Positions 3,001-23,661 of a stretch of DNA of 64,000 nt are shown one piece after another. The notes under the pieces were generated by a model. It saw nothing but the letters and a program-made list of their open reading frames with translations, was not told where the DNA came from and made no database searches. This DNA comes from a virus (Duplodnaviria; Caudoviricetes). The translations under genes were made by a program, and so were the position numbers. The stretch covers positions 10,075-74,074 of IMG/VR virus record IMGVR_UViG_2623620477_000001. The stretch is one strand, 5' to 3'. The number at the start of each line of letters is the position of its first letter. The stretch's first letter is position 1.

Positions 3001-5659
3001 TTCCACCATTTTCGATTATTCCAATGGTTTCTCCAATGGCATTTGCAAGGTCTGATTGTGAAGCAGGAGTACTTACATCTCCGTAATTTATAGGAAGTCC
3101 GCTCTGATTTGGGAGAGTGGTTTTCGGATCAAAGTCGTCTACAACAATACTATCTGCATCATAAATCTGTTCATTATAAGGAATGAGCGTTAATTCATAA
3201 GTTCCGTCACCATTTTCTTTCTTTCCGAAACAGAGAGTTTCAATTGTTTCTGTTCCATAGAGTCCGAATGATAATACTGCTCCTTCTTCTATAATGCTAT
3301 TTGCAGTTTCAGCACTATCGAACATAAGTACATTGTGCTCTCCCGATGCAGAGAATCTAGCAAGTTTTTTCTTTATGATTACAGGTTCTCCGTTTGTGTT
3401 TACACCGTTTATTTGAACACCATAATTTTCGTTTACATGAGCAACTGTGAACTTTACATCGGTTTTAATACCTGTAATGAGGTTGTTATCGTTCTTGATA
3501 AGTTCTACAACTTCTCCACCCTCTCCGATACCAACGCTGATTATAGGGCTTTGAATTGTTATAAGACTACCAATTTCAGCAAGTGAACCTTCGGTAGTTA
3601 CCTTTGCTTGAAGGGTTTCTGGTCTTAATTTCTTACAAGCCTGCTGATATAAACTTAATGCCTTTGCGTGATATGGGTCTGAAATATATGGCATTTCTAC
3701 ATTCTCAAGAACATCAGAACTTGACAAGGCAGGACTTCCGTAAGGTTTTACTGCAATTGTATCTTGCTGATAATAATTCAACGCAGAAATGTACTTTACA
3801 CTCTGACCGTCTGGAAGTACATCAAAACTCTTTGTCAGTGTAAGCGATAACAAGTTGTTATTATTCAAAGTAAGCAGAGGTATAGACTGTGGCTTATCGG
3901 TATAAATACCGTACTTCTTTCCGTTGAGGATAATAAAACTCTTTGCGGTCTGTAAAATAGTGTTTACAAGGTCGATTGTTTTTGTACTATTTAATACAGC
4001 ACCGTCACAATAATGACGTTTATCGGAAATGCCTCCTGCAAATGTCCTTGTTTCTTCACAGAGTTCATACAGTTCTCCAAACTGCTGTAAGTCGATTTTG
4101 TTTGACTCCATATAATCAATACCTTCTGTGAGATTGTATCTGTATATAGGGTCTTTATAATCTCCTGTCATTACCATTAAAGAAAGTGATGCTGGGTTTC
4201 GTGTCGGCGCTAGAGTTTTGCTCCACCCTGTTCCATCGAATGTTCTTGCCTTTGAAGTAGCGACGAGATTTATTTTATCAAAATTACTCTGTAAATCATC
4301 AGTTACCTTAATAGAGAATCCAAGTCTTGCAGTCTTGTTTCTTTCTCTTTCATTCATAGGTGCTTGTCTTTCATAACTTGTTGATTGACCTTCCCAATCT
4401 GTTTTTGAATAATCATAGCACCAACTTCGAATTGCAGTAAAATAACACTTGTCTATTATCTGTGCAGAATCTGTAGTTGAAGGATTACAACGAGAGATTC
4501 TGAACTCGATTACCTTCGATTCACAAGTCTTTATATCACTCTTTGGGAACGCAATACGGTAAACATATCTTAAGGTTTTTGCCTTTTGGTTTTTGAATAC
4601 CATATATCCGTGTTCTTGGTCGTAGATACCTCTGTTTGTAGATTCTGACATCTTCCACTTCTGACCCACGTTATCACCTACAATCCAAGTGTTCCCGTTA
4701 TCAAGAGAATACTCGATTTTTACATCAACTTCTGCATCCTGTTTTTCACCCTTATCGTTATATCCGATAAGACCTGCAAAAGACACTTCGAGTTCTACTA
4801 TATTTGCATATCGGGCAGAGAACGCATAAACATAATTTGCATTTCCTTCTACATTCTTAAGTTCTGCATTAAAGTTCTCTTGTACAACTTTCTGATTATA
4901 CAAAGATACTTCGTTCGCTCCCTGCTGTATTTCAAGTTGAGTGTAACTTGATTTTTCTGGGTCTACTTCGCCTGTAACTGGATCAATGTATTCATAAGGA
5001 TATTTTTCTGATGTAATTTCAAGAGCACCGTTCTCAACATTTCCTATATTACTTGCAAGAACTTCGTTTCCTATACTTACATCTTTTATATCGAGGTTGT
5101 TATATCCGATTAAATACAGACAGTGATATATCATATTTTCACCGTCTTCTCCACTTATTGTTGTGTAAGGCTTTCCAATTACATAAGGAACAAAATAAGT
5201 CTTTCCTAAAATAAGAGGTATACACTTTCCTAAAGCACTCTGATTCTTCGAGCCTTGTATTGAAGGAAGATTTTCTATTTCTTCTTGATTGTTAGCAGTA
5301 TCTACATCTGGAGTAAGCCATTTTTTCAATCCTTCTTTAAGTAATTCAGCGAACCCCTTGCCTGTTACCATTCTAACAACAAGTTCACTAACACCAAGAA
5401 CAGCAACTCCAATAAGTGTAGCATAAATAAGCGAAGCAACAGAAATAGTTCCGACTGCACTTGGGTACTGTCTTATAACACAAGTATCACCGTCTTTAAG
5501 TTTATAGTCTTTTTCCTTGCGGATTCCGTTTACAAAGATTACAGAGTTTTCAAGATCAACGTCTGTAATTGCTTCACAAAGACAGAGAGGTGTGCTGATT
5601 TTTACGACTTCTGATTTAGGCTCAAATGGATTCTTAATTACTTCAACAATTGCTTGGCT
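1..5659 (-). CDS. Tail tip / host-specificity protein (lambda gpI+gpJ-like, FN3-like repeats), 3'-truncated by window edge; AGC start
   Basis: Missing from the ORF track. By hand translation the frame is open from AGC at 5659 to base 1 (>1880 codons): (M)QAIVEVIKNPFEPK...IFVNG...LKDGD...GSKNQSALGKCIPLILG...TRNPA..., with repeated 'FDR..DGYP...W' beta-sandwich units. Lies downstream of the NlpC/P60 gene. Confidence 0.88.
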
Positions 5660-6038
5660 TGTAGTACCCCTCTATTCTGTTTTCCCACCTATGCAACGGT
5701 TCAATTTTTACACCCTCTTTAGTAGCGTGGATAAATAAACCGTGTTCAAGGTAAACTCCCGTATGTGTGGGTTCGTTTATTATTTTGATTACTATTATAC
5801 ACAATTCTTGCGGATAAGCCAACTTTTCATATTTAACTTTTTGTATCATTTCAAGAAAAACTGATTCGTACTGTTCTGGATTGTCATAGTCTACATCTGG
5901 AAGATACATTCCGTGTATTTTGTAAACTTCAATATCAATTCCATAACAATCAAAACCTTCTTTGGTTCTTCCGTGGATTTTATAAGGACATCCAACTAAT
6001 TCTTTTATTTTTTCGTAATTTATACTAGTCCTGGACAT
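5643..6038 (-). CDS. NlpC/P60 tail-assembly protein (gpK-like)
   Basis: GCPYKIHGR..GFDCYG and HTGVYL..G.FIHA catalytic motifs; position in tail module. Confidence 0.9.
   Translation of the reverse strand: MSRTSINYEKIKELVGCPYKIHGRTKEGFDCYGIDIEVYKIHGMYLPDVDYDNPEQYESVFLEMIQKVKYEKLAYPQELCIIVIKIINEPTHTGVYLEHGLFIHATKEGVKIEPLHRWENRIEGYYKPSNC
5657..5672 (-). promoter_or_regulatory. RBS + AGC start of tail tip gene
   Basis: GAGGGG-tactaca-AGC CAA GCA ATT; in-frame TAG 5 codons upstream; first in-frame ATG is 96 codons downstream. Confidence 0.8.
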
Positions 6039-6499
6039 ACTCTATCATTACAAACATCATAAGGAACTTTAATGTCGAATAAATCATCAAACTTCATAGT
6101 CCACTGAATAATTGTTTCATTCAAAACTGCATTTGTAAGAATGAACTCCATATCTTCAATCGGTTCGATAACATCAGAACCATTATTATATTCAATTGTG
6201 GCTACAAATCTAATTGTTGCTCTTACTTTTGCAGAACGGATCTTATCAACCCAAAACTGGTCTACGGAAGAAATACTGATAGAAGCATCTGTAAATCCTG
6301 TGCTTGTCTGTTCTGGCAAACTTATTTTGAAAAATCCTGCCAAGAACGTATGTTCCTCAAAGACTACATCTTCATCAGTGTTTGCGTAGCGATATATTAC
6401 TACATTTCCTTCATTGTCAGTATAAGTAATCTCAATGAGATACGGAAACTTAGCCTGTATCACCATCTTTTCCATTAAAAGTTTTGCAGTTCTTGTCAT
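6020..6499 (-). CDS. Minor tail / baseplate hub protein (DUF1833/gpL-like)
   Basis: GGAGG-aagt-ATG at 6499; F.A..F.ISLP motif; C-terminal CPGL; synteny. Confidence 0.7.
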   Translation of the reverse strand: MTRTAKLLMEKMVIQAKFPYLIEITYTDNEGNVVIYRYANTDEDVVFEEHTFLAGFFKISLPEQTSTGFTDASISISSVDQFWVDKIRSAKVRATIRFVATIEYNNGSDVIEPIEDMEFILTNAVLNETIIQWTMKFDDLFDIKVPYDVCNDRVCPGLV

Positions 6500-6849
6500 A
6501 CTTCCTCCCAATCCATAGTACAAGTTATAAGTTTTCCACTTGTTTGAGAATACTGCGGTGCTCCGTCAGAAGTGAATCTGTATTCAGCATTTCCACTTCC
6601 GTCAATCTTAGGAAACTCAAAAGACAGAGTTCCGAACTTAATTGTATTCTTATACCAATAACTAAAATACAGATATTCGTCATAGGTAAAAATCATCGTT
6701 ACGCTAAAAGGTCTTTTGGCAAGGCTGTGAGCCATTCGTCTTTTTGTTTTACCACTTAATGTTTCATCAGAGATAAAACCTGTTATTTCAGACCAAGTTG
6801 TATCTCTTCTTGCCAACTGATTTACATGAGAATCCCAAGCCTGTGCCAT
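6496..6849 (-). CDS. Distal tail protein (gpM-like)
   Basis: SGKTKRR and WYKNTIKFG.LSF.FP motifs; directly after tape measure. Confidence 0.7.
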   Translation of the reverse strand: MAQAWDSHVNQLARRDTTWSEITGFISDETLSGKTKRRMAHSLAKRPFSVTMIFTYDEYLYFSYWYKNTIKFGTLSFEFPKIDGSGNAEYRFTSDGAPQYSQTSGKLITCTMDWEEV

Positions 6850-9800
6850 TATAACCTCCTACCGTCTACTCTCTGTTTCTGCATTGCAAAAGCGTTATCC
6901 CAACCATTAAAACCATTTGCAACATCACTCGCAATCTTCTTGCTGATTGTAATGAGCATTTCATTTACGCCATTATTATTTCTCTGCTGAACATCAACAT
7001 CGGTATTTGCATAGTTGTTTACCACAACTTTTACTGCACCTTTGCCGAGTCCTTCAGGATTCTTTGTTGCAATAATAGTATCTTCGGGATGAGTACTGAA
7101 ATTACCTTTTGGTGTAATTATCATATCATTTACAGGTGTTGCTCTTGATACATAATCTTTAAGAGTAAATGCGTTAATTTCAGATTTCTTCTTAAGATAA
7201 TACTCTTCCTGTTCCTTAATTGCCTTTGCAAGGTCTTTATACTGCTGATTAAGTTCTTTGAGAAGTTCAAGTTGTTTCTCTTGTTCATTTGCCTCTGATG
7301 ACCCCTCTGCAAGAGAACTTATAAATCCCGATGCAATACCACTTGCTCCACCAAGAGCAAATAAAGCGAGAGCGCCTGGCACTCCTGCCCAACCAGACTG
7401 TGCAATTAAGTTGACACCTGCTTGAATACAGGTAATTGCGAGGCTCTTTGTTATCTGTGAAACGAGTTGTGCAAACTGTTTCTTTAATGCGTCTCCTACG
7501 CTTGCTCCTTTTGCGAGAGCATCGCCGATTGCTGTAAATCCGTCTATCAAGGCATTTGGAATCTGTGTCTTTGCAATGTCCATAAGAGTACTTGCAAATA
7601 AATCAGCATTAGTTTTTGATATACCGATTTTCTCAAAGTATTCAGAAACCTGTCCTTCAAGATAACCCCAAATATCAGACTGTTTTTTCTTCTCATCAGT
7701 TAATTGCTTTTCCCAATAAAGAAGTGCTTCGGCTTGGTTTTCTGTGTACCCTTCCGACATAAGAGCCTTTATTTCAGCCTGTTTCTTTAACTCACCTGTC
7801 TGGTCTTTGAGGATTGCAAGTTCTTCTCTATATGATTCCAATTGAGCAATAGTAGCCTCTTGTTGTGCGCTATACTGCAAATCTTTCATCTTGTTTGTAG
7901 TACCCTCATCAGCACCCCACAATCCCGAATCACGCATAGCTTTGATTACAGAGTTTATCTTCTCAAGTTTCTGTTCTGCGAGATCCAATTTGCTTATATT
8001 GATAAGTCCTGCGTCAGAGAATGACTTCATATTTGTCATTTCCTTTTCAAGTTTTTCCTTGAATTTAGCAACAGCAGTAGCACCTTTTTCAATAGCACCA
8101 TCATATACTTCTTCGTTAGTGAATCCCATCGCATTTTGCAATACTTTCTGCCATTCAGAGAGATTTTCAAGCTTAATTTTAATCTTTACTTCTTTAAGTT
8201 GCTTATTGAGATATTCAATCGTCTTGTCAATTTCTGGCTTATTCTTTGCATAACTGATTACATTTCCATCATTATCAAATTGTCCATTGAGTTCTTTTAA
8301 TTTCTTCTCATAAGCCTGTACAGTTTTAACGTTATCTTCAAGAGCAATTTTCTCTTTTTCGTGTTTAGAGATAGTTCCATTAAACAATTCATCAACTTGG
8401 TCTTTAAGTTCGGTGATATTGAACTTCTCAACTTGAGATTCCCAAAATGAAACAACACGAGCCTGTTCTTCTATCGACCTATTTGTATGTGCAACGGCTT
8501 CTTGCCATTTATTTACTTCTTCTTGTGCTTTCTTTAATTTCTTTTCATATCCTGTAAGTCCGCCACCACCATCTTTTCTCATTTTTTCTTCAAGCAAACT
8601 TACATTCTTGTGTGCCTCTTGTAGTTTTTCATTAAAAGTAGCAAGATTGCTCTTATACCCATCAAGAATAGCAGTTTCATTTTGAAGATTCTGTTTGCGA
8701 TTATTCTTATTAACTCCAACATTCAGTAAGTTATAATCTGTTCCCATTGCCTTTTTTGCATCTTCTACAGCCTTCGCCATTTTTGCGGTTTCTTCTGCAG
8801 CCTCCGCAGTACTCTTTTTATAAGACTTTACAGCAACGGCTATTCCTGCAATTACACCTGCTCCAACAGCCAACGCTAAAGTTGCAGGGTTGAGAATTGC
8901 CTTAAGAACTACAGTTTTCTTTAACTCGGTATTTAATTTGATTATTGCACCAACAAGTCCAACTCCGATTACGGTTACAAGGGAAGAAATAACCGCAACA
9001 AGTCCACCTTGTAGAAGTGCTTTCATTACAGGATTGCTATTCCACTCAAGTAATTTATCAGAGAGGTTTCCTATCTTTTCTTTGAGGACATCGAGGATAG
9101 CCTTGTAAGCATCTGCAATTCCCGATACTTCGGCAAAGTTTACAGTCATTTCCTTAAAGTAGTCAGAAATGAACCCTTCCTTACCTTCGATAGTTTTATT
9201 GATGTTGTCCATAGCATTATAGAACTGACCTGCTTTTCCTGTGGTTTCATCTACGGCAGAAGTCATATTCTTAAATGCCTTGGTAATATCCTTTGCGGTG
9301 GCAGTTCCCGTAACGCCCATTTTCTTCAACATATCATAGATAGGAACGCCACGCATAGCCAACTGTTGCAACTGCATAGCAGATGCCTTTCCTGTACTGT
9401 TGATTTTAGAATAGATAGTTACGAGATCCGCGAACTTGTTTTTGTCTCCCTGTACAACGTTTCCGAGCATTACCAACTTATCTTTAATGGTGTCTACATC
9501 TACACCGACGTTAGCCATCTGTGTAAACGCACCTGTAAGTTCATCAACACCGAAAGTTGTTTCATTAGAGAGTTTTCGAAGTTCCTCGAACTTTGCTTTA
9601 CCTACATCTGCATCGTGGAAGAATGTAGTAAGACCCATTTCAAGTTCTTCGAAGTGTGAGAAGTTACCAATAGCGGTCTTAAACGCACTAGTCATTCCTT
9701 TAATAGTTGCAACAAGTGAAGTAACACCTGCAACTGCCGCGAGAGTAGACGGGCTAAGCGCCCTCATCGCATCATCAAGATTACCCGTAACCTTTTCAGA

Positions 9801-9899
9801 GTTACTTGCAGTCTTGTTGAACATATCTAAATCGCCTGTAGCCTTTACTACTCCCTTAGAATCTATCTCAAGAACTAATCTACTGATGTCATTTGCGCT
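6849..9899 (-). CDS. Tail tape measure protein, AGC start (1016 aa)
   Basis: Long Ala/Lys/Leu-rich coiled coil with tape-measure N domain (LSNETTFGVDEL...LQQLAMRGVPIYDML) and hydrophobic segments; extension to AGC restores a typical N-terminus (M)ANDISRLVLEIDSKGVVKATGDLD. Confidence 0.92.
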   Translation of the reverse strand, partial: SANDISRLVLEIDSKGVVKATGDLDMFNKTASNSEKVTGNLDDAMRALSPSTLAAVAGVTSLVATIKGMTSAFKTAIGNFSHFEELEMGLTTFFHDADVGKAKFEELRKLSNETTFGVDELTGAFTQMANVGVDVDTIKDKLVMLGNVVQGDKNKFADLVTIYSKINSTGKASAMQLQQLAMRGVPIYDMLKKMGVTGTATAKDITKAFKNMTSAVDETTGKAGQFYNAMDNINKTIEGKEGFISDYFKEMTVNFAEVSGIADAYKAILDVLKEKIGNLSDKLLEWNSNPVMKALLQGGLVAVISSLVTVIGVGLVGAIIKLNTELKKTVVLKAILNPATLALAVGAGVIAGIAVAVKSYKKSTAEAAEETAKMAKAVEDAKKAMGTDYNLLNVGVNKNNRKQNLQNETAILDGYKSNLATFNEKLQEAHKNVSLLEEKMRKDGGGGLTGYEKKLKKAQEEVNKWQEAVAHTNRSIEEQARVVSFWESQVEKFNITELKDQVDELFNGTISKHEKEKIALEDNVKTVQAYEKKLKELNGQFDNDGNVISYAKNKPEIDKTIEYLNKQLKEVKIKIKLENLSEWQKVLQNAMGFTNEEVYDGAIEKGATAVAKFKEKLEKEMTNMKSFSDAGLINISKLDLAEQKLEKINSVIKAMRDSGLWGADEGTTNKMKDLQYSAQQEATIAQLESYREELAILKDQTGELKKQAEIKALMSEGYTENQAEALLYWEKQLTDEKKKQSDIWGYLEGQVSEYFEKIGISKTNADLFASTLMDIAKTQIPNALIDGFTAIGDALAKGASVGDALKKQFAQLVSQITKSLAITCIQAGVNLIAQSGWAGVPGALALFALGGASGIASGFISSLAEGSSEANEQEKQLELLKELNQQYKDLAKAIKEQEEYYLKKKSEINAFTLKDYVSRATPVNDMIITPKGNFSTHPEDTIIATKNPEGLGKGAVKVVVNNYANTDVDVQQRNNNGVNEMLITISKKIASDVANGFNGWDNAFAMQKQRVDGRRL

Positions 9900-11225: not shown

Positions 11226-11298
11226 TAGCGGAGGAGGGATTCGAACCCCCGACATTGTGGCAAGCGCCCACCTAAGCTACCAACTGCTTCACTCCGCG
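11226..11298 (-). tRNA. Initiator-type (tRNA-fMet-like) tRNA with anticodon GCU (reads AGC)
   Basis: CGCGGAG TG AAGC AGTTGGTA GCTT A GGTGG GC-GCT-TG CCACA ATGTC GGGGG TTCGAAT CCCTC CTCCGCT A (73 nt). C1xU72 mismatch, G2-C71, C3-G70, A11-U24, A73, short variable loop; anticodon at 11265-11263; CCA not encoded. Confidence 0.9.
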
Positions 11299-11447: not shown

Positions 11448-12704
11448 TTATTCAATAGTTACTGTACAACTCTGGTTTGCACTTGCTGTTGTACTTCCTG
11501 TAGCAGAAGCATTTGTATTTGTAGCAACAACCTTGTAAACACCGCTTTCTGTTGCTGTGTAAGTAGCATCGTCTGCTTCGCTGATTGCAACATTATCCTT
11601 GTACCACTGATAACTGATTGTTCCACCGTCTGTTACTGTTGCAGTACCGTCAAGTGTTACTGATGTTTCATCAGTAGTATCTTCCAACTCATTTGTGAAA
11701 GTTGGTGTTTCAGCATCTACTGGTGTTTCAGCAGTCACAACGTCTTTCTCAAGTTTCAAGTCAGTAGCACTGTTTACCTTGAATGGAACAGAGAACTGCA
11801 ATTTGTTTCCGTTCTTGCTTTCTGTTGGAGCACCAAGGTGAACGTTCAAAGTAAGTGTGTAAGAGTAAGTTATTTCTCCAACTGTTCTTTCTACCTTTAC
11901 CTGTAATACCTTGTCCTTTCCGTCTACTGCATCGTTGTAAATCTCATGTCCGAGTTCATCAACGTTATAAACATCGAATGTTCCTTCAATTACGAAGTCT
12001 CCAAGAGAGTTCTCAATTGATTCTTCTTCAAACAGAGCAGGTGTTCTTTCGAGGTTGTTGTTGATTGTGATATTCATACTTGGTGACTGACGAACAGCCA
12101 CAAGTGATGATGTAGTATCACCGTATTTCAACCAACCTTTCTTTGTAAGGAATGATTTTCCTGTATTTGCACTTCCATAAGTAACAGTTCTGTTATCATA
12201 AGAAGTAGGCTCGGAAAATACTTTCTTAGGGTTATTAGAACCCATAAGATTCCAAGTCAGTTTTACAAAGGCATCAGTCGCAAAGTCCATTGTGAGTTGG
12301 TTTACATACATTTTTGTGTACATCTGCCAAGCAAGCGGTGTCTGTGGATATTTCTTAACCATTAAGAAAGCCTTTACAGCATCACCAAGAGTAAGTGAAC
12401 TTTTTCCGTTGTTTGGTGTTGTCCAATCGTTACAGAAAGCACCCGCGAACAAATCATCCTGTTCACCGTCTACATTCCATTCTGTTCCAATATCACCAGC
12501 ATTTGATTCTGTGCCGACTTCTGGGGTTGAAGGAATACGTGAATCAGGCAGAATAATATCTGATGCGATTTCTTCCGATGTTCCTGCAACCGAATTGTCT
12601 GATACACGTCTTGGAGTAAGTGCAATTGCACCACTTCCCGAAGTAATCAAACCAAGATAGGTTGTAAAATAAGTCTTAATTTTGTTTGTAATAGCGTTAC
12701 TGCT
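11448..12704 (-). CDS. Major tail tube protein with C-terminal Ig-like domain, AGC start (418 aa)
   Basis: Tube-type sequence (SEEIASD...GDIGTEW...ITINNNLE) plus ISYQWYKDNVAISEADDATYTA..GVYKVVATN Ig domain; (M)SNAITNKIK N-terminus from AGC. Confidence 0.88.
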   Translation of the reverse strand, partial: SSNAITNKIKTYFTTYLGLITSGSGAIALTPRRVSDNSVAGTSEEIASDIILPDSRIPSTPEVGTESNAGDIGTEWNVDGEQDDLFAGAFCNDWTTPNNGKSSLTLGDAVKAFLMVKKYPQTPLAWQMYTKMYVNQLTMDFATDAFVKLTWNLMGSNNPKKVFSEPTSYDNRTVTYGSANTGKSFLTKKGWLKYGDTTSSLVAVRQSPSMNITINNNLERTPALFEEESIENSLGDFVIEGTFDVYNVDELGHEIYNDAVDGKDKVLQVKVERTVGEITYSYTLTLNVHLGAPTESKNGNKLQFSVPFKVNSATDLKLEKDVVTAETPVDAETPTFTNELEDTTDETSVTLDGTATVTDGGTISYQWYKDNVAISEADDATYTATESGVYKVVATNTNASATGSTTASANQSCTVTIE

Positions 12705-15307: not shown

Positions 15308-16447
15308 CTAGCCGAGAAGTGCGATAGAGTTCTCTGGCTTAATATTCTTGAATCCCCAAGCAGTACCGATTGTAACGGTTGTCTGATATGGAGCACCCCA
15401 AACAGCAAGTTCGTATGGAATACCTGTAAGTGGGTCTGTGATAATTGCACGGTCAAGTGCATTATCTCCCTTACTTGGTACGAATGGAACACGGCTTGCC
15501 ATAATGATAGAACCACGAGAGAATACGCTGTTTGGAGCGTAATTCTGTACAGTGATTGCAGCATCATTAGCAACGTCTGCTTTAAGAGCAGTCTGCAGTT
15601 TAAGAGTTGTTCCACCTGTAGCAACATCTTCTGCAACAGCATAGAGAGTTGTGTCAGAACCGAACTTAACAAGGTCACCCTTCTTGAATGTACCTTCACC
15701 TGTGTCCATTGTAACCTGTGTTGCACCTTCTGATGCTCCACCGTTTACAAGGTAGCCACTTGCAGTACCCTTTGCGTGACGCATACCTGCTGATTCGCGG
15801 ATTGTGAATCCGAACAAATCACCAAGAATACCACGGCGGAGAAGGTCTCCTGTACCTGCTTCATTAACCTTCTGCAAGTGTTCAATATTGCGGAGGTTAC
15901 GACCAGATGTTGTATTAAGGATAGCCTGTAATTCTCCAAGAGGAGCACCAACATCTTCGAGGTTCTTAAGAGCATCTGTAAGAATGCTTGTGTTTGATGC
16001 AAATGGATTTGTACCAATTGTACCAAGTACACTTCCCTCGTTTACAGCAGAGATAACTGCCTCTTCACAAGCGTCTGCTTCCATTTCATTACGAAGTCCG
16101 CGGATTCTCTGTGCATACTGTTCAACCTGAATTGGGTCAAGCATACCAGAACCACTAACGCCAGCCTCGCCTTCTCCTGTCCAAACGATAGGCTTACCAC
16201 GACGGATCTTCTGGATTGTTACACCTACTGTCTCGATTGTATCGAGGTCTGCTGTAGGAGTTACACCTTCTCTGATATCCTCGTTATCTCCCATAGGAGT
16301 AATTGGGATTTCAACCATCTGTCCTTTCTTAACAGAACTTGCCTTTGCACTGATGATAGTTGCAGGAATCATACCGATTGGCTCTGCATTTACCTTATTC
16401 AATGCTTCATAAAATACTGGAATTACCGAGTCTAATTCGTGTGCGCT
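15308..16447 (-). CDS. Major capsid protein (P22 coat-like), AGC start (379 aa)
   Basis: KGQMVEIP, LLRRGILGDLFGFTIRES, ITDPLTGIPYE, AWGFKNIKPENSIALLG; extension to AGC gives (M)AHELDSVIPVFYEALNKV, a family-like N-terminus; follows scaffold gene. Confidence 0.92.
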   Translation of the reverse strand, partial: SAHELDSVIPVFYEALNKVNAEPIGMIPATIISAKASSVKKGQMVEIPITPMGDNEDIREGVTPTADLDTIETVGVTIQKIRRGKPIVWTGEGEAGVSGSGMLDPIQVEQYAQRIRGLRNEMEADACEEAVISAVNEGSVLGTIGTNPFASNTSILTDALKNLEDVGAPLGELQAILNTTSGRNLRNIEHLQKVNEAGTGDLLRRGILGDLFGFTIRESAGMRHAKGTASGYLVNGGASEGATQVTMDTGEGTFKKGDLVKFGSDTTLYAVAEDVATGGTTLKLQTALKADVANDAAITVQNYAPNSVFSRGSIIMASRVPFVPSKGDNALDRAIITDPLTGIPYELAVWGAPYQTTVTIGTAWGFKNIKPENSIALLG

Positions 16448-17334: not shown

Positions 17335-17361
17335 AAAAGAGGCGGACTTTTACATCCGCCT
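17335..17361 (-). terminator. Rho-independent terminator
   Basis: AGGCGGA-N8-TCCGCCT followed by CTTTT. Confidence 0.65.
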
Positions 17362-17378
17362 TTAAATAGTTTTTTCTC

Positions 17379-18377: not shown

Positions 18378-18387
18378 AAGTCATCTC

Positions 18388-18585
18388 CTATAGTGGATTC
18401 CAAGTCTTACTCTGACCGTGGAATACATACAAATCGCCTGTGTCCAAAACAAAAGCAGAACTTCCTGCACTGCAATCTGTTGGCAACTTTGATATATCTG
18501 CACTATACAACTGGAAGTTTTCTTGGCTATTTCCACTTCCGCCTACCGATTCAATTGAGCCTAAATCAACACCGTTTCGTATGCT
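18388..18585 (-). CDS. Hidden 65-aa protein with AGC start
   Basis: GGAGGT-agccca-AGC; (M)IRNGVDLGSIESVGGSGNSQENFQLYSADISKLPTDCSAGSSAFVLDTGDLYVFHGQSKTWNPL; its stop overlaps the RBS of the next gene; no ATG in frame. Confidence 0.8.
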   Translation of the reverse strand, partial: SIRNGVDLGSIESVGGSGNSQENFQLYSADISKLPTDCSAGSSAFVLDTGDLYVFHGQSKTWNPL

Positions 18586-18644
18586 TGGGCTACCTCCATT
18601 TAATTTGAATTATAAGACACACTTGTATTATAAACAAGCGCAAT

Positions 18645-18872
18645 TTATGAAATATGATTGTTTATCTGATTCCAACCAATCTCGTAACAATCAACAAAAC
18701 TCTGTGGTAATTCAATTTCCAATGCCTCTGACAATCTTTCTAATTTTGGCAGATTATCCTTCTCTACGTCATAACAAGATGATTTGATTCCTGTTTCTTC
18801 ATACTGCTTGAGGCTGTTCTTTATTTCCCCAATCTGATTATCTATTTTTGCCTTGAGTTCACTTTGTTTCAT
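18645..18872 (-). CDS. Small hypothetical protein (candidate immunity partner of MuF toxin)
   Basis: AAGGAG RBS; overlaps the MuF stop. Confidence 0.55.
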   Translation of the reverse strand: MKQSELKAKIDNQIGEIKNSLKQYEETGIKSSCYDVEKDNLPKLERLSEALEIELPQSFVDCYEIGWNQINNHIS

Positions 18873-20682
18873 AATAAATAACTCCTTCAATCATCTTGAC
18901 TATATCAGTTGGAAGTTTTTCAATACCCATCCTATACATTGTAAACACTTCTGCAAAAAATTCAAATGCGTTTCTATTACCGTATTCTGATATAAGATTC
19001 TTCATAACAGCAGTATCTTTTAGAGATTTGAACATATCATTTACTTTACCAACTTCTTCAAGCATTGAAGCAATTTGCTGTTTTGTTTTCCCTCTAGTAA
19101 AATATCCAAAGTTGTTAAGACCAATTCGGAAATCTGATAACAAATGACCATATTCGTGAGTAACTGTAGATTCAACACTTAATTGTCTATAACCAACATT
19201 ACCACGCATGAACTTACTCTTGTATTCTGCTTCACGTAGAAGATCCGTAAAATATTCCTTTTGTAACTTCATAAGAGGTTCTTTGATATGCTCATCACAA
19301 TATGCAATCTGTTTCTTATAATGTTCTATATCACTCTTACACATTACTGCCCATTCGCTCGGAGTTGGAGTAATTTTTTTCGACATCTGCTTTTCAATAT
19401 ACAAAATATCTCCATAAGTCTTTCCTGTTTCTCCCTTCGGAAGTGACTTAAACTCGATTGACTTAATTACAGGAATAGGATATTTACTCTGCAATCTTGT
19501 GTATTCATCTATTGTCCTCTTTACAACATCAACTTCTGTGTCGCTCGGAATCACAACTTCTTCGGCAAATACTTTTAGTTTGTTAGTCAGTTGTTCAACT
19601 TTCTTGTCACTTAATTCAGACATAAGTTTACCAACTTTACCACCATTGATTACACCACCAATCCTTGAACTCATAGTCTTAAGAGATATTGTTTTTCCGT
19701 CATCAATAAACTGTCCAACATTCTTGTCTCTCTTGTATAGCTCATACCTTGTTTTACCAAGCACTTCCTTCTGCGTTTCCTCGTCCTGTTTTCCGAGCCA
19801 ATCATTGAAGGTTACTCTTTCAACGTATCCGTCTTTTGAGGCTCTTGTTTCTCCCTCGATGTAGAAGTAAGGAATGATAATACAGCGACATCCACGATGC
19901 CTTGGAAGTAATGGTGCGTCCTTGAGACTCTTGAATAATTTCCCATCATCGTTGCCACATACAATACAAGTTCTTGAATCCAATGTTGCGAGGTATTCAT
20001 ATTTATACTCTGTTTCTCCGTCTCCAAAATACTGCTCGTTTTCCTCAAATACTCTGTTTCGTGTTTCATTTGCAAATGATTGAAGAAGTGTTCTAGTGTT
20101 ACCGTATATTGAATTGCGTAATGAGTTTATAGCACCTGGCTTTTTGAGTTTACTTGAAGGTGTAAGCCCGCCCATAACATTCTTCACAATCTCATCAGTA
20201 GGCATACCTGTCAAATATCCTGCTCTTACTGCGGAATCCCAAGTATTAAACAATCCGTCTTCAATTCCATTCAGATAACTGTCATAAGTAAATCCATCTG
20301 TCACTGGCTTGAACATTACTGCGGTCTTTATCTGTTCTACTGTTGGATAAATCAAGTTGACCTTGTTACCCTTCTTTATACTCCGCATATAAGGCTTTGA
20401 GAGTTCGAGAAGATGTTTCTGTTTCTTAAGTTCGTAATCTATAAGACCATCGATGTCTGTATTGTCTGCTACATTTTTCTTAACTTCCTTAGACACTTCT
20501 CTAAGTTTCTTGGCAATATCATGGTAACGTTTCTTGGTAGATACTTCGGAAGTTCTCTTGAGATACTTAGCAATTTCTTTATCAGCATCATCAAATAACT
20601 TAATTATCTCGTTGGCTTGACCATTCTTATACTTCTCAAAATCGATTGCGTACTTGATTACACCGTTCTCTAACTTATTCAT
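18859..20682 (-). CDS. Minor head protein (SPP1 gp7/Mu gpF) with C-terminal zincin metallopeptidase domain
   Basis: YLATLDSRTCIVCG..DGK, P.H..CRC.IIP MuF motifs; C-terminal HEYGH and EFFAEVF. Confidence 0.88.
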   Translation of the reverse strand: MNKLENGVIKYAIDFEKYKNGQANEIIKLFDDADKEIAKYLKRTSEVSTKKRYHDIAKKLREVSKEVKKNVADNTDIDGLIDYELKKQKHLLELSKPYMRSIKKGNKVNLIYPTVEQIKTAVMFKPVTDGFTYDSYLNGIEDGLFNTWDSAVRAGYLTGMPTDEIVKNVMGGLTPSSKLKKPGAINSLRNSIYGNTRTLLQSFANETRNRVFEENEQYFGDGETEYKYEYLATLDSRTCIVCGNDDGKLFKSLKDAPLLPRHRGCRCIIIPYFYIEGETRASKDGYVERVTFNDWLGKQDEETQKEVLGKTRYELYKRDKNVGQFIDDGKTISLKTMSSRIGGVINGGKVGKLMSELSDKKVEQLTNKLKVFAEEVVIPSDTEVDVVKRTIDEYTRLQSKYPIPVIKSIEFKSLPKGETGKTYGDILYIEKQMSKKITPTPSEWAVMCKSDIEHYKKQIAYCDEHIKEPLMKLQKEYFTDLLREAEYKSKFMRGNVGYRQLSVESTVTHEYGHLLSDFRIGLNNFGYFTRGKTKQQIASMLEEVGKVNDMFKSLKDTAVMKNLISEYGNRNAFEFFAEVFTMYRMGIEKLPTDIVKMIEGVIYYETK

Positions 20683-20850
20683 TACACATCTCCCACTCTT
20701 CTTCTGTGAATGGCTTTCCTTGTTCATAATCTCCACACAGAGTTCTCTCTGTATAGGTGAATAAAGGCTCAACCAAACAAAAACCTATTGGCAGATTGTC
20801 GTCTTTTGTACAATCTACCCACTTCTCGCACGATTTACAGAGAACCTTAC

Positions 20851-21306
20851 TCAACAGCGATACCCCTTCTTTTCTGTTCCTTCAAGCCATTCAGAGGCTC
20901 GTTTCTTTGCTCCATTAAGGTCATGGTCACGATAGTTTCCACATTCAACTTCATTTACAGCAGGGATCTCCTTATTCCATACTGCAACTTTCTCGAGAAC
21001 ATTTCTGAATACACAGTAAATGTCATACTCTGTATATTCTCCATAACAGATGAAATAAAACCCTGTACGGCAACCCATAGGTGACAAATCTATTACTCCA
21101 CCAATCTCATCTCGAATAGTTTCTGCCATAAGATGCTCAAGAGTGTGGATTTCTCCTGTTCCCATACAATCCTTATTTGGCTGGCAGAATCTTATGTCAT
21201 ACTTGCTTACAACAACTCCGTTTTGACGTTTCATACTTGCCAATCTTACATAAGGTGCTTCCACTTTTGTGTGATCCAAATTAAAACTTTCCACTTTATA
21301 ACTCAT
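20851..21306 (-). CDS. luxS: S-ribosylhomocysteine lyase (AI-2 synthase)
   Basis: VESFNLDHTKV.APYVR, DIRF.QPN, HTLEH, SPMGCRTGFY, CGNYRDH all intact. Confidence 0.96.
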   Translation of the reverse strand: MSYKVESFNLDHTKVEAPYVRLASMKRQNGVVVSKYDIRFCQPNKDCMGTGEIHTLEHLMAETIRDEIGGVIDLSPMGCRTGFYFICYGEYTEYDIYCVFRNVLEKVAVWNKEIPAVNEVECGNYRDHDLNGAKKRASEWLEGTEKKGYRC

Positions 21307-22231
21307 ATTTACTCCTTTTTGGAAACTTCTTCCCTAATACTTCGTAGATTACTGAATAAACGCTGAAATCTGTTTTTGAATTATCATTCAGTACAGTCTC
21401 TCTGTAACCCTCATTTATCAAAACCTTTACTATCATAGGAAGGTCTTGTTTTGTCGTAGCACAATATCTGTGCCTGTATTTTGAATCTGTCTTACAAACT
21501 CCTGCGCCCATAGCACAGAATGAAAACAGATATTGATTAAAGTTCTTGTATTCTCTGAAACTAGATACTGATTCAAGTATTTCATCTTTGTATCTTTCAT
21601 ATACAGAGTTACAAAAACTCTTAATCATTGGCGCGGAGATATGTGGTACTTGTGGGTACTCCGTATCTCCTATCAACCTAAAACATCTGCTCGGATAATG
21701 TTTCCTCGCAAACTCATAACTGTTACGTGCTATCTGAAAGTAATGTTCCTTACGCTGTTTTGGAGAACCAATATTGATTATCTCCAACTTGTTCTTTGCT
21801 TTTACTGAACCGTCATAATCTTCATAGAAGAAGTCATCTGGCGTCAGCACTCCGTTCGGCAAAAAGTCATCATTCGAGTAAATGTAATACTCGGATAAAT
21901 CCTTAATCAGATGCACGAACATTTCTATTGCACAAGAGTTGAACGTAGGCAAAAATTCCTTTGGAATGAACTCCTTATGTTCAACTACTGTAACAGTTTC
22001 TGTATTCATCCATTCGGGTACTTGGGTCTTATCGTGTACAATGATAAATACCTTTCGTACCCACGGCATATATCGTTCAGTAGCACGAAGTTTATAACGA
22101 AGTAATTCACCGTCAGCATAATAACGTTGCTTATCATCGTTATAAACTCGTCCTGTGGCTTTCTGCCAATCAGTCTGCCACTGTTCCTTTCTGCAATCCA
22201 CATAAGGAAACACAACATCGATGCGATTCAT
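21296..22231 (-). CDS. Stealth-family hexose-1-phosphate transferase
   Basis: CR1 IDVVFPYVD; CR2 ELLRYKLR..ERYMPWV...LPTFNSCAIE...YSNDDF; CR3 H...PM..S; C-terminal FPKRSKYE. Confidence 0.9.
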   Translation of the reverse strand: MNRIDVVFPYVDCRKEQWQTDWQKATGRVYNDDKQRYYADGELLRYKLRATERYMPWVRKVFIIVHDKTQVPEWMNTETVTVVEHKEFIPKEFLPTFNSCAIEMFVHLIKDLSEYYIYSNDDFLPNGVLTPDDFFYEDYDGSVKAKNKLEIINIGSPKQRKEHYFQIARNSYEFARKHYPSRCFRLIGDTEYPQVPHISAPMIKSFCNSVYERYKDEILESVSSFREYKNFNQYLFSFCAMGAGVCKTDSKYRHRYCATTKQDLPMIVKVLINEGYRETVLNDNSKTDFSVYSVIYEVLGKKFPKRSKYEL

Positions 22232-23649
22232 TACTCATCCTCATTTGGAATTGGAATCCTACTCTTCTGTTCCTCATCAATTTCTGCCTGTTCTTCCTCG
22301 AATGTCTTATCAGATGCAATAATCTCACCTTCTTGGAGATTTCTGAACATAGTCTTCTTAGAGATTGCTCCCTGTTGCCAAGCAGCGACATACTGTGCAA
22401 GGTCACTTGCAGAGAGTGCAGAAACATCGTAGTCTGTATTGAATATTACTTGGTGTTTATCTTCTGGAACTTCCTTGCTAGATGACCATTCAAGATAAAT
22501 CTTCAATAACTTGGTGAATACGATTGAGAAGTTGTTCGCAATATCAGCAAGGATAGAGTTCTCACCTGCTCTGTGGATTCGTGCAGTTTCTGCAGATTCT
22601 ACTCCTTTACGCTCCTGTGAGATAATCCTTGCTCCAAGGATAGCCATACGCTCTTCATCAGCGTTCATTGCATTTGCCAACTGATTACATCCGCTACCGC
22701 TGAACTCAAGATATTGCATACTTGCACCTGCTGGAAGATTTTGAACAACTGAACCACCAAGTTTAAGAGGTTCTGAAGCAACTTCTACTCCATTTACCAA
22801 TACAGTTGGAACATCTGCTCCCTGTGTCCAAGGTGTAGGAACGCCTGTCCAATGCAAACCATTTTCGTAGTCTGCTGACTTGCGATAGTGAGAAAGGTTT
22901 ACGTTGATTAAGTCCTCAAGAATAGGCTCTTGTGGATAATCTGATGTTGATAGGAAATAGAATGGGATGTAATTGAATCTCTTACCTTTGATTTTTGGCT
23001 CTACTTTGTCGATTACTACATCTCTGTCATTGTAGAGAATCTGTACATAGTAGCCGTTCTCGTCAATCTTGCATACACGGTAATTGTTCCTCTGTTCAAG
23101 GGTAAAATCTGCCTTTACAACCTCTGTTTTCTCTCGGAAGATAACAAAGTCAAGATACTGCTTTCTACCGTCACTAGCCCAATGCCAATTGATGATGGAC
23201 TCTGCCTTGTAATAGGTCATATACGCAGAAAGATTTGCATCCTCAAAATCTTTCTGACTTCTTACATTCTCCATTTTTGGCATATCAACTAATACACCAC
23301 CCCATGCAGTAGTAAGAAAGTCCTTTACTGTTTCAGAACAGAACTGATTAAGTGAGTGACCTTTTCCGTCTACGTTTTCAAGATACTTTTCAAATCCGTC
23401 TGGAATCTGTGTGATGATAGGCTTACGGTTTATCATACCGCTTAAGCCATCAAGTGTTCTTCCTGTTGCGTTGAAGAACTGCGCCCTCATTATGTAAGCA
23501 TTGTAGTCAGCATCATCCATTCCCGATGCTCTTGGAAGATAACGTTCCTTGCGATACTTGATGTAAGTTTCACCACCAACTGCATCGCGACATTTCTCCC
23601 ACTTCTTAATGAACTTCATATAAGAACTACAACAATTCTGAATACTGCT
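22231..23649 (-). CDS. Portal protein (DUF4055-type), AGC start (472 aa)
   Basis: W..CRDA.GGE..IK...YLP, RA.FFNATGRT, NLSHYR.SADYE.GLH, AWQQGAIS; follows TerL. Confidence 0.92.
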   Translation of the reverse strand, partial: SSIQNCCSSYMKFIKKWEKCRDAVGGETYIKYRKERYLPRASGMDDADYNAYIMRAQFFNATGRTLDGLSGMINRKPIITQIPDGFEKYLENVDGKGHSLNQFCSETVKDFLTTAWGGVLVDMPKMENVRSQKDFEDANLSAYMTYYKAESIINWHWASDGRKQYLDFVIFREKTEVVKADFTLEQRNNYRVCKIDENGYYVQILYNDRDVVIDKVEPKIKGKRFNYIPFYFLSTSDYPQEPILEDLINVNLSHYRKSADYENGLHWTGVPTPWTQGADVPTVLVNGVEVASEPLKLGGSVVQNLPAGASMQYLEFSGSGCNQLANAMNADEERMAILGARIISQERKGVESAETARIHRAGENSILADIANNFSIVFTKLLKIYLEWSSSKEVPEDKHQVIFNTDYDVSALSASDLAQYVAAWQQGAISKKTMFRNLQEGEIIASDKTFEEEQAEIDEEQKSRIPIPNEDE

Positions 23650-23661
23650 TGGCTTCCTCCT
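23647..23661 (-). promoter_or_regulatory. RBS + AGC start of portal gene
   Basis: AGGAGG-aagcca-AGC AGT ATT CAG; in-frame TAG 7 codons upstream; the ATG 10 codons downstream has no SD. Confidence 0.85.

What the first reader, a model, noticed from the sequence alone, without database searches (positions are those of the whole stretch)
5657..23661. Orthogonal translation initiation: virion genes start with AGC and the phage encodes an initiator-type tRNA with anticodon GCU
Seen: six late genes have AGC exactly where ATG should be, 6-7 nt after a strong SD. Portal: AGGAGG-aagcca-AGC (23649). 65-aa ORF: GGAGGT-agccca-AGC (18585). Major capsid: AAGGAG-acgcta-AGC (16447). Tail tube: AAGGAG-tagcaa-AGC (12704). 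Tape measure: GAGGAGG-aagccaa-AGC (9899). Tail tip: GAGGGG-tactaca-AGC (5659). In every case an in-frame stop lies within 9 codons upstream with no ATG/GTG/TTG in between. Reading AGC as Met gives plausible N-termini (MAHELDSVIP, MSNAIT, MANDISRLVLEIDS, MSIQN, MQAIVEVIKNPF). I noticed no such starts in early genes. A tRNA-fMet-like gene at 11226-11298 carries anticodon GCU. Established: AGC differs from AUG at two positions and is not a usable start for host tRNA-fMet, and engineered anticodon-swapped initiator tRNAs can initiate at their cognate codons. Inference: the phage uses a private start codon so that core virion proteins are translated only when its own tRNA is present. This could be a late-gene gate, a way to avoid leaky expression of proteins that trigger host defences (capsid, portal and tail tube are known triggers), or a way to stay translated when host tRNA-fMet is attacked. 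I know of no described natural example.
Basis: partly seen in the sequence, partly recalled or inferred. Interest (0 to 1): 0.98.

Follow-up and report, generated by a model that had tools for sequence, protein, structure and literature searches.

The report
Phage private start codon with own initiator tRNA
A Treponema phage begins at least seven of its virion and lysis genes with AGC instead of ATG and carries a copy of its host's initiator tRNA whose anticodon reads AGC; related phages do the same with AGG or AAG, which looks like a natural private system for starting protein synthesis.

Summary
Six minus-strand virion genes (portal, a 65-aa ORF, major capsid, tail tube, tape measure, tail tip) have a strong Shine-Dalgarno site followed by AGC. 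An in-frame stop lies 1-8 codons upstream, and the first ATG/GTG/TTG lies 10-96 codons downstream. Orthologues in relatives have ATG at exactly that codon. At 11226-11298(-) lies a class-I tRNA that copies the Treponemataceae host initiator tRNA (C1xU72 mismatch, G2:C71, C3:G70, A73) but has anticodon GCU.

The decisive evidence is covariation. In 13 phage or prophage contigs that carry this tRNA type, GCU tRNAs go with AGC starts, CCU with AGG and CUU with AAG, in the same orthologous late genes. In 86 control loci without such a tRNA these codons are at background. All these tRNAs have U37, and 38 of 40 alt-start sites have A at -1, which suggests four-base pairing.

Not known: the amino acid carried, whether it is formylated, and the biological purpose. 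Five full-text literature searches found only engineered counterparts. I rate it categorically new and of very high interest. No experiment backs it yet.

The parts
11226..11298 (-). Initiator-derived tRNA with anticodon GCU. It is 73 nt and class I with a 5-nt variable loop. It has a C1xU72 mismatch, G2:C71, C3:G70, A73 and A11:U24. The anticodon loop is GCGCUUG with C33 and U37. CCA is not encoded.
   Evidence: Rfam tRNA model 38.2 bits against a cut-off of 29; cloverleaf parsed; covariation across 15 sequences; missed by ARAGORN.
22231..23649 (-). Portal gene, starting with AGC at 23649-23647 after an AGGAGG SD.
   Evidence: PHROG portal E 4e-124 with residues 8-469 aligned. Orthologues start with AGC (L035), AGG (L118, L033, G005), AAG (L003) or ATG (L110) at the corresponding codon.
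18388..18585 (-). 65-aa ORF starting with AGC at 18585 after a GGAGGT SD. Function unknown.
   Evidence: No Pfam or PHROG match and no homologue in the fetched loci. This is the weakest of the six.
15308..16447 (-). Major capsid gene, starting with AGC at 16447 after an AAGGAG SD.
   Evidence: PHROG major-head profile positions 2-383 align to residues 2-379. Close homologues begin MAHELD.../MANELD... at the same residue. L003 and L110 have ATG at that codon.
11448..12704 (-). Tail tube gene, starting with AGC at 12704 after an AAGGAG SD.
   Evidence: Pfam Phage_tube_2. Orthologues start with AGC (L005), AGG (L004, L030, L032, L118, L130), AAG (L003) or ATG (L110, L035), followed by the same N-terminal peptide.
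6849..9899 (-). Tape measure gene, starting with AGC at 9899 after a GAGGAGG SD.
   Evidence: Pfam TMP_3 and PHROG tape measure. The N-terminus x-A(N)DISRLVLEIDS is conserved, with AGC, AGG or AAG as the first codon in 9 of 9 phages examined.
1..5659 (-). Tail tip / host-recognition gene of 2650 codons. It starts with AGC at 5659 after a GAGGGG SD and runs off the left edge of the window.
   Evidence: Pfam FNIII-A_GpJ. Orthologues start with ATG (L035) or AGG (L004, G005) at the corresponding codon.

Best explanation
The phage (a temperate Treponemataceae phage, 74 kb, held as a virus record) carries a derivative of its host's initiator tRNA. The derivative keeps the parts that mark a bacterial tRNA as an initiator: an unpaired 1x72 position, G2:C71, C3:G70, A73 and G:C pairs at the bottom of the anticodon stem. 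Its anticodon has changed from CAU to GCU.

At least seven genes of the virion/lysis module have replaced ATG by AGC at the Shine-Dalgarno-positioned start. On the 30S subunit this tRNA would pair with AGC in the P site. U37 probably also pairs with the A that precedes the start codon at nearly every client gene. The host initiator tRNA reads such codons hardly at all, so these proteins would be made only when the phage tRNA is present.

Shown here by sequence comparison:
- the sites;
- the initiator ancestry of the tRNA;
- selection on its fold;
- strict matching of anticodon and start codon across three codon types in independent phages;
- repeated switching between ATG and the private codon at orthologous genes.

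Inferred, not shown:
- that the tRNA is expressed, charged and formylated by host enzymes;
- which amino acid it carries (possibly not Met, because MetRS depends on CAU; Arg or Lys are candidates for CCU and CUU, and GCU is unclear);
- what the arrangement is for. My best guess is a lock that ties synthesis of virion proteins to the late programme. A second guess is insulation from host attack on, or competition for, tRNA-fMet.
For: 1. Sites. Six window genes plus one more just outside the window have SD + 6-8 nt + AGC, a stop 0-8 codons upstream and no canonical start for 10-96 codons.

2. The region after AGC is coding from the first residue. The PHROG capsid profile aligns from position 2. 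Homologues at 77-82% identity begin with M followed by the same peptide. Orthologous portal, tube, tape-measure and tip genes keep the N-terminal peptide while the first codon is AGC, AGG, AAG or ATG.

3. tRNA ancestry. Initiator tRNAs taken from two Treponemataceae MAGs that hold related prophages also have C1xU72 and an acceptor stem one base pair away from the window's tRNA, with a similar D arm.

4. The fold is under selection. Over 13 phage tRNAs and 2 host initiators, 96.2% of 290 cells pair, against 45-57% when partners are slid. 14 of 20 pairs have compensatory changes. G2:C71, C3:G70 and G30:C40 are invariant. Position 1x72 is mismatched in all 15.

5. Covariation (counts are orphan-SD starts as AGC/AGG/AAG). 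GCU phages (3 loci): 16/1/4. CCU phages (8 loci): 3/26/0. CUU phages (2 loci): 1/1/3. The CUU sites were checked one by one. In 86 control loci (941 kb) of capsid relatives without such a tRNA the counts are 9/15/5, against a mean of 8.2 per other codon.

6. Prediction test. Four contigs were found only through the CCU anticodon-arm pattern. All four tRNAs have a 1x72 mismatch. AGG orphan starts number 7 in G005, 3 in L130, 1 in G004 and 1 in L131.

7. Position -1 is A in 38 of 40 alt-start sites, against 63 of 114 ATG sites in the same phages. All 13 phage tRNAs have U37, where the host initiator has A37. An E. coli study found that initiator position 37 pairs with mRNA -1 and that A37U/A37G variants favour complementary -1 bases (PMC10018350, passages read).

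8. In E. coli, non-canonical start codons give 0.01-3% of AUG with the native initiator (bioRxiv 10.1101/063800, passages read). That is too little for a major capsid protein.

9. The tRNA lies between the tube and tape-measure genes, on their strand, in 8 of 8 loci where both genes are in view (coordinates).
Against: - No expression, charging or N-terminal protein data exist. The one RNA run (X4) gave contigs of relatives over the capsid and a little of the tube gene, but none over the tRNA.
- The GCU-type loop is odd for any working tRNA: C33 instead of the near-universal U33, a pyrimidine at 37, and a purine at 32.
- Only 2 of the 3 canonical G:C pairs of the anticodon stem are present in the window's tRNA, and 27:43 is G.A.
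- MetRS should not charge a GCU anticodon and SerRS needs a long variable arm, so the charging enzyme is unknown. None of the 30 non-structural proteins scanned is a synthetase, formyltransferase or initiation factor. Many proteins had no match and the smaller ones were not scanned.
- The tRNA sits in the same gene block as its clients, which weakens a simple 'timer' reading.
- The sites counted across phages are orthologous genes in related phages, so the Fisher tests overstate independence.
- The CUU class rests on two close relatives (L003, L110).
Confidence: 0.85

Rival explanations
1. The genes really start at the first downstream ATG/TTG. The SD-AGC arrangement and upstream open frame are untranslated leader, and the tRNA-like gene is unrelated.
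For: Automatic gene callers chose downstream starts for the window's own capsid record (P0001, 354 aa) and for many relatives.
Against: The downstream canonical codons have no SD. The stretch between AGC and those codons is conserved as protein and aligns to residues 2 onward of full-length homologues and of the PHROG profile. Callers picked different downstream codons in different relatives (MLPAT, MFYEAL, MDSVIP, MNKVNA), which is the signature of a missing canonical start. This reading does not explain the codon-anticodon covariation.
Confidence: 0.03
2. Initiation does occur at AGC/AGG/AAG, but through the host's ordinary tRNA-fMet (weak non-cognate initiation or reinitiation after the upstream stop). 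The phage tRNA is an elongator or a decoy.
For: Several sites lie within a few codons of the stop of the upstream gene, so termination-reinitiation is conceivable. AGG and AAG differ from AUG at one position only.
Against: AGC mismatches CAU at two positions. Non-canonical codons reach 0.01-3% of AUG in E. coli, yet these are the most abundant virion proteins. The start codon always matches the anticodon of the tRNA carried by the same phage. By recalled textbook knowledge of E. coli tRNA-fMet, the 1x72 mismatch disfavours EF-Tu binding and elongator use. A bacterial tRNA-Ser would have a long variable arm, and this one has 5 nt.
Confidence: 0.06
3. Artefact: assembly or sequencing error, or an engineered or edited sequence.
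For: The only run that holds the full stretch may be the source of the record.
Against: The same arrangement, with three different codon/anticodon pairs, occurs in at least 13 contigs from different MAG, IMG/VR and metagenome records. The public protein collection holds the window's capsid as a 354-aa truncated call, as expected if the deposited DNA already lacked ATG. Logan's own assembly of X1 is identical over 6.8 kb at word depth 206.
Confidence: 0.01
4. Same mechanism, but the purpose is not a late-gene lock. The altered anticodon loop lets the phage keep initiating when the host initiator tRNA is cleaved or depleted by a defence or toxin system, or by the phage's own host shut-off, and the start codons followed the tRNA.
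For: The whole anticodon loop differs from the host's, not only the anticodon: U37 in all, and C33 and G38 in the GCU type. Anticodon identity has changed repeatedly within one phage clade; the capsid tree needs at least 5 state changes over 13 rows. That looks more like an arms race than a fixed regulatory device. A paper proposing that phage tRNAs evade tRNA-targeting defences through anticodon-loop mutations exists (PMC10264068; title and abstract start seen in the listing only). That VapC-type toxins cleave initiator tRNA is recalled, not checked here.
Against: Most genes of the phage, including the terminase and many other late genes, still use ATG, so the phage would not survive loss of tRNA-fMet. 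No nuclease or trigger was identified here.
Confidence: 0.25

Closest known systems
Engineered anticodon-mutant initiator tRNAs in E. coli (amber initiator CUA; i-tRNA(AAC) reading GUU)
   Same: An initiator tRNA body with a swapped anticodon starts translation at the cognate non-AUG codon behind a normal SD. It is largely orthogonal to the native initiator. The N-terminal residue follows the new anticodon and can be poorly formylated or deformylated (bioRxiv 10.1101/2021.05.25.445580, abstract read; PMC11744186, introduction passage read).
   Different: Those systems are laboratory constructs. Here the system is natural, phage-borne, serves a defined set of virion genes, exists in at least three codon versions, and also has U37 matched to A at -1.
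Phage stop-codon recoding with phage-encoded suppressor tRNAs (recoded late genes in crAss-like and Lak phages; recalled, not looked up here)
   Same: A phage-encoded tRNA changes the meaning of a codon that is concentrated in late or structural genes, so those genes are readable only in the phage-modified translation state.
   Different: That case concerns elongation at TAG/TGA. This one concerns initiation, uses sense codons that keep their normal meaning inside genes, and the tRNA derives from the initiator.
Natural non-AUG starts read by the ordinary initiator tRNA (GUG, UUG, AUU of infC, GTC of sigR)
   Same: A non-AUG codon sits at an SD-spaced start.
   Different: Those are near-cognates of CAU, need no special tRNA and are usually weak or regulatory (PMC5472188, title and abstract start in the listing). 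AGC is not a near-cognate, and here a matching tRNA is supplied.
Quadruplet pairing of initiator tRNA position 37 with mRNA position -1 (E. coli, PMC10018350)
   Same: Complementarity between tRNA position 37 and the base before the start codon. An A37U initiator favours mRNAs whose -1 base is complementary (passages read).
   Different: There the effect is a modest modulation of AUG starts. Here U37 is fixed in all 13 phage tRNAs and A(-1) in 38 of 40 client sites, so the fourth pair may be part of the recognition.

Membership tests
tRNA (Rfam RF00005) | Score at or above the family's gathering threshold; cloverleaf supported by covariation. | tested here: met
   38.2 bits against 29. 96.2% of cells paired and 14 of 20 pairs with compensatory changes in 15 sequences. 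ARAGORN with default settings did not report it.
Bacterial initiator tRNA (tRNA-fMet type) | No Watson-Crick pair at 1:72. | tested here: met
   C1xU72 in the window's tRNA, the same as in the two host initiators. All 13 phage tRNAs are mismatched at 1:72 (CxU, CxC, UxU, AxC).
Bacterial initiator tRNA (tRNA-fMet type) | G2:C71, C3:G70 and A73, the formylation and identity elements of the acceptor end (recalled from E. coli work). | tested here: met
   Invariant in 15 of 15 sequences.
Bacterial initiator tRNA (tRNA-fMet type) | Three consecutive G:C pairs (29-31:39-41) in the anticodon stem. | tested here: inconclusive
   The window has U29:A41, G30:C40 and G31:C39, i.e. 2 of 3. Across the 15 sequences 29:41 is G:C in 7, 30:40 in 15 and 31:39 in 13.
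Bacterial initiator tRNA (tRNA-fMet type) | A11:U24 in the D stem. | tested here: met
   Met in the window's tRNA, but only 5 of 15 sequences (including both hosts) have A:U at 11:24, and 9 have U:A.
Bacterial initiator tRNA (tRNA-fMet type) | Anticodon CAU with loop CUCAUAA (A37). | tested here: not met
   The loop is GCGCUUG, with anticodon GCU, C33 and U37. It works like an initiator by inference but is not a tRNA-fMet by anticodon. This is the point of the finding.
Bacterial initiator tRNA (tRNA-fMet type) | Charged, formylated and delivered to the P site by IF2. | not testable with these tools
   Needs tRNA charging assays, N-terminomics and toeprinting.
Elongator tRNA-Ser(GCU) | Long variable arm (class II) and a paired 1:72. 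| tested here: not met
   The variable loop is 5 nt and 1:72 is mismatched.
Phage code switch for late genes (tRNA-mediated recoding) | The recoded codon is concentrated in late or structural genes and the matching tRNA is encoded by the same phage. | tested here: met
   7 of 39 ORFs in the virion/lysis half against 0 unambiguous of 84 elsewhere (my count). In G005, 7 AGG starts lie between 18.7 and 35.1 kb. The codon concerned is a start, not a stop, so this is an analogy and not membership of the described stop-recoding systems.

The most novel reading that the evidence does not exclude
A clade of Treponemataceae phages, and at least one phage with an unrelated capsid, runs a natural orthogonal initiation system. 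The system is an initiator-tRNA derivative whose anticodon has been re-set at least three ways (GCU, CCU, CUU), with the start codons of portal, capsid, tube, tape-measure, tip and other late genes re-set to match. The start would be read as a four-base signal (A + AGC/AGG/AAG pairing with anticodon + U37). It would probably place a non-methionine residue at the N-terminus. The start codon would then be an evolvable, phage-private signal rather than a universal one.
Probability: 0.75. Interest if true: 0.97.

Novelty: categorically new. Interest (0 to 1): 0.95.

Why it matters
AUG and its near-cognates, read by one initiator tRNA, are treated as a universal feature of translation. Reassignment has been documented for stop and sense codons but, as far as my searches show, not for a start codon paired with a dedicated natural initiator tRNA.

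If confirmed, this has four consequences.
1. It gives a natural precedent, with ready-made parts, for the orthogonal initiation systems that synthetic biologists have had to engineer.
2. It shows a new layer of phage gene control, or of defence evasion, acting at initiation.
3. It explains systematic N-terminal mis-annotation of capsid, portal, tube and tape-measure genes in these phages. Gene callers truncate them, and tRNA finders can miss the tRNA.
4. It opens testable questions: which synthetase charges such tRNAs, how formyltransferase, IF2 and IF3 treat them, and what a non-Met N-terminus does to virion proteins.

Tried and rejected
- ARAGORN on the window and on L001/L002 found no tRNA. 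The Rfam model and my own acceptor/T-loop scan were needed instead.
- Megablast of window 5000-24999 against the phage collection found no match.
- An exact pattern of the window's own anticodon arm plus T arm found nothing in viral contigs.
- A looser GCU-type pattern gave 36 stretches. Only one (L145, the contig of L035) holds an initiator-like GCU tRNA; the rest are chance hits or ordinary tRNAs.
- A single-protein capsid search of viral contigs gave only two distant relatives, both with ATG. The alignment-based searches were needed.
- MAFFT of three tRNAs misplaced gaps, so I built no covariance model. The 15-sequence alignment was adequate except for the D arm of L131 and the gap column at 49.
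- My first orphan-SD census was too permissive and noisy and was tightened.
- My automatic start caller, which allowed all three alternative codons in every locus, made some wrong internal calls, for example AAG@3181 for the L003 capsid, which really starts at ATG 3007. I therefore relied on site-by-site checks.
- Three further AGC candidates (46129, 28928, 61640) were set aside because a canonical start lies within 2-12 codons.
- L128's 5.4-kb stretch showed no AGG start. The full record G004 showed one clear site on the tRNA strand and two doubtful ones on the other strand.
- The promoter/terminator scan around the tRNA found 0 promoter-like and 0 terminator-like sites, so how the tRNA is transcribed is unresolved.
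- Reads: X2 and X3 (DNA) and X4 (RNA) hold only diverged relatives in short contigs. They say nothing about expression of the tRNA, and I could not see their letters at the AGC sites because 496 rows were not shown.
- I looked for a pairing partner for the WGC spacer motif in the tRNA (G30-U33 is complementary but in the wrong orientation) and in the recalled 3' tail of 16S rRNA. I found none. That was reasoning only, with no call.
- Pfam scans of 30 of the roughly 84 non-structural ORFs found no translation-related protein. The smaller ORFs were not scanned.
Paper supplements were not consulted.
- The claim that the system is not in print rests on full-text searches and 71 of the held library only. 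Subscription-only papers are not covered.

Full report
**What is in the window**

The window is bases 10075-74074 of a 74,074-bp virus record with 37% G+C. Nearly all genes lie on the minus strand.

There is a strong Shine-Dalgarno (SD) site, then 6-8 nt, then AGC. The frame is open downstream and closed by a stop 1-8 codons upstream, with no ATG/GTG/TTG between stop and AGC. The first canonical codon, which has no SD of its own, lies 10-96 codons further on.

The genes are the portal, major capsid, tail tube, tape measure and tail-tip proteins (Pfam and PHROGs), plus a 65-aa ORF of unknown family. Most other genes of the phage have an ordinary SD followed by ATG.

**The stretch behind AGC is protein**

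- The PHROG major-head profile aligns from its position 2 to residue 2 of the AGC-started capsid protein.
- Among 270 homologues in the large protein collection, the closest full-length ones (77-82% identity) begin with M followed by the very peptide that follows AGC in the window.
- The window's own record and many relatives were called short, from different downstream codons. That is what a gene caller does when no canonical start is there.
- In fetched DNA, orthologues of the portal, tube, tape-measure and tip genes keep the N-terminal peptide while only the first codon differs.

**The tRNA**

ARAGORN reports nothing in the window. Rfam's tRNA model matches 11226-11298(-) at 38.2 bits against a threshold of 29.

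It is a 73-nt class-I cloverleaf with these features:
- C1xU72 unpaired, G2:C71, C3:G70, A73 and A11:U24;
- two of the three G:C pairs at the foot of the anticodon stem;
- a 7-nt loop with GCU at positions 34-36;
- unusual loop positions C33 and U37;
- no encoded CCA.

I took the initiator tRNA from two Treponemataceae MAGs that carry related prophages. It too has C1xU72, its acceptor stem differs from the window's tRNA by one base pair, and its D arm is similar. The phage tRNA is therefore a derivative of the host's initiator with a new anticodon loop. It is not a tRNA-Ser, which would have a long variable arm.

**Relatives: the decisive evidence**

Capsid-based searches of GTDB genomes, IMG/VR and metagenomes brought in relatives from Treponema and Treponemataceae MAGs and from viral contigs. 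At the capsid start they have one of the following, always SD-spaced and with a stop just upstream:
- ATG: L003, L110, L034, L104 and all distant relatives looked at;
- AGC: L005, L035;
- AGG: L004, L030-L033, L111, L112, L114-L119.

A scan for tRNAs with a T loop and six acceptor pairs found one initiator-like tRNA in every locus long enough to reach the tail genes:
- GCU in the window, L005 and L035;
- CCU in L004, L030, L032 and L118;
- CUU in L003 and L110.

In L003 and L110 the capsid gene uses ATG. The tape-measure gene in both, and also the portal and tube genes in L003, start with AAG.

The census of orphan-SD starts gives these counts:

| Set | Loci | AGC | AGG | AAG | Other non-canonical codons |
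|---|---|---|---|---|---|
| GCU phages | 3 | 16 | 1 | 4 | max 5 for any one codon |
| CCU phages | 8 | 3 | 26 | 0 | max 4 for any one codon |
| CUU phages | 2 | 1 | 1 | 3 | max 3 for any one codon |
| Control, no such tRNA (941 kb) | 86 | 9 | 15 | 5 | mean 8.2 per codon |

As a prediction test I searched IMG/VR for the CCU anticodon arm plus T loop alone. All 6 hits are initiator-like with a 1x72 mismatch, and 4 are contigs not found through the capsid. Their AGG orphan starts number 7 in G005, 3 in L130, 1 in L131 and 1 in G004. G004 is a complete 52-kb phage without a capsid of this family.

**The tRNA family is under selection for its fold**

- In 15 sequences, 96.2% of 290 pair cells are standard pairs, against 45-57% when partners are slid by 1-3 columns.
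- 14 of 20 pairs show compensatory changes.
- 0 of 500 shuffles reach the observed covariation score.
- G2:C71, C3:G70 and G30:C40 never vary.
- The tRNA lies between the tube and tape-measure genes, on their strand, in 8 of 8 loci where both genes are in view.

**A fourth base pair?**

All 13 phage tRNAs have U at position 37, where the host initiator has A. The base before the private start codon is A in 38 of 40 sites, against 63 of 114 SD-ATG genes of the same phages (Fisher p = 1.5e-6). The sites are not phylogenetically independent.

An E. coli study showed that initiator position 37 pairs with mRNA position -1, and that A37U or A37G initiators favour complementary -1 bases (PMC10018350, passages). 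The natural U37/A(-1) pairing fits this. It would add discrimination against the host initiator.

**Evolution**

On a capsid tree of 13 full-length rows (partial capsids left out), the window is sister to L003, which has an ATG capsid start and a CUU tRNA. AGC sits on three separate branches, and the three states need at least 5 changes.

The window's tube start context is identical over 20 nt to that of L005, and the two tRNAs share acceptor stem and loop. The genomes are therefore mosaic. Individual genes have moved between ATG and the private codon repeatedly, as the matrix shows.

The one-step paths CAU to CCU or CUU, and then CCU to GCU, mirror AUG to AGG or AAG, and then AGG to AGC. That ordering is inference.

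**What is not known**

- There is no evidence of expression or charging. The only RNA run held contigs of relatives over the capsid gene.
- Which synthetase charges the tRNA is open. By recalled E. coli work, MetRS depends on CAU, ArgRS reads C35/U36 and LysRS reads U35. Arg for CCU (perhaps also GCU) and Lys for CUU are therefore guesses.
- Engineered i-tRNA(AAC) starts proteins with valine, and these proteins show altered formylation and stability (abstract).
- Pfam scans of 30 non-structural proteins found DNA methylase, ParB_N, PAPS-reductase/DUF3440, SAM methyltransferase, AAA_5, IstB/DnaC-like, NinG, PcfJ/PcfK, Thy1 and SSB. They found no synthetase, formyltransferase or initiation factor.
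- The purpose is unknown. The phage is temperate: open frames on the other strand lie at the left end, and the relatives G005 and G007 are classed as proviruses. A lock on virion-protein synthesis is therefore plausible. Evasion of attack on tRNA-fMet is the main alternative.

**Comparison with what is known, and novelty**

In principle the system works like engineered anticodon-swapped initiator tRNAs. In logic it resembles phage stop-codon recoding by phage suppressor tRNAs (recalled). It fails one defining feature of tRNA-fMet, the CAU anticodon with A37, and that is the point.

Five full-text searches found no natural case. Papers outside the held library cannot be excluded. In E. coli, non-canonical starts read by the native initiator reach only 0.01-3% of AUG, so a dedicated tRNA is needed to make capsid-level amounts.

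**Verdict**

The mechanism is strongly supported by comparative sequence evidence but untested at the bench. I rate it categorically new and of very high interest.

Noticed in passing
window 57180-57243 (-): A second tRNA-like gene scores 46.4 bits on Rfam's tRNA model. It has normal acceptor, D and T arms, but the whole anticodon arm is replaced by a short unpaired linker, for 64 nt in all. ARAGORN does not report it. It lies between the PcfK-like and SSB genes in the early region. Function unknown; a decoy or minimal tRNA mimic is possible.
   Followed up: partly
spacers of the alt-start sites, e.g. window 23650-23655, 18586-18591, 12705-12710, 9900-9906: Between the SD and the private start codon there is usually an A/T-G-C motif, whichever start codon (AGC, AGG or AAG) follows. 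It occurs in 25 of 40 alt-start sites against 15 of 114 SD-ATG sites. I found no pairing partner for it in the tRNA or, from recall, in the 16S 3' tail. Unexplained.
   Followed up: partly
L123 3603-3881 (-) (genome coordinates; just left of the window): A seventh solid AGC-start gene: a 92-aa ORF with a hydrophobic N-terminus in the lysis/accessory region, with SD GAGGTGGG and a stop immediately upstream. A homologue in L111 (42% identity) has an ATG three codons upstream of the position matching its first residue.
   Followed up: partly
window 11162-11388: In DNA run X3 the bin that holds the tRNA has summed word depth 691, against about 0-15 in the other bins. Something at least 85% similar to this short stretch is very abundant in that sample. 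What it is was not determined.
   Followed up: no
window 25334-28928 (-): A run of genes that looks like a DNA-modification or anti-restriction module: DNA methylase (N6_N4_Mtase), ParB_N, PAPS reductase plus DUF3440, and a SAM methyltransferase.
   Followed up: no
window 11405-11445 (-): A G+C-rich hairpin followed by a short T run lies directly after the tube gene's stop, about 120 nt upstream of the tRNA (read by eye; not reported by the terminator scan). It may attenuate transcription between tube gene and tRNA.
   Followed up: no
window 9875-10324 (-) and 10297-10782 (-): Between the tRNA and the tape-measure gene there is a 161-aa ORF, then an overlapping frame open for 150 codons whose first canonical start is 61 codons in. 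This is the usual place and look of the tail-assembly chaperone pair made by programmed frameshifting. Not examined.
   Followed up: no
G004 (loci L170-L172), tRNA near 18.4 kb, AGG start at 23253: A complete 52-kb phage with inverted terminal repeats and no capsid homologue of this family also carries a CCU initiator-like tRNA (AxC at 1:72). It has one textbook SD-spacer-AGG start on a 383-codon gene. The system is therefore not confined to one capsid lineage.
   Followed up: partly
window 12685-12724 versus L005 4240-4275: The tube-gene start region, including SD, spacer, AGC and first codons, is identical to that of L005. L005's capsid is only 43% identical to the window's, and the window's capsid is closest to L003. 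This indicates head and tail modules of different ancestry.
   Followed up: partly
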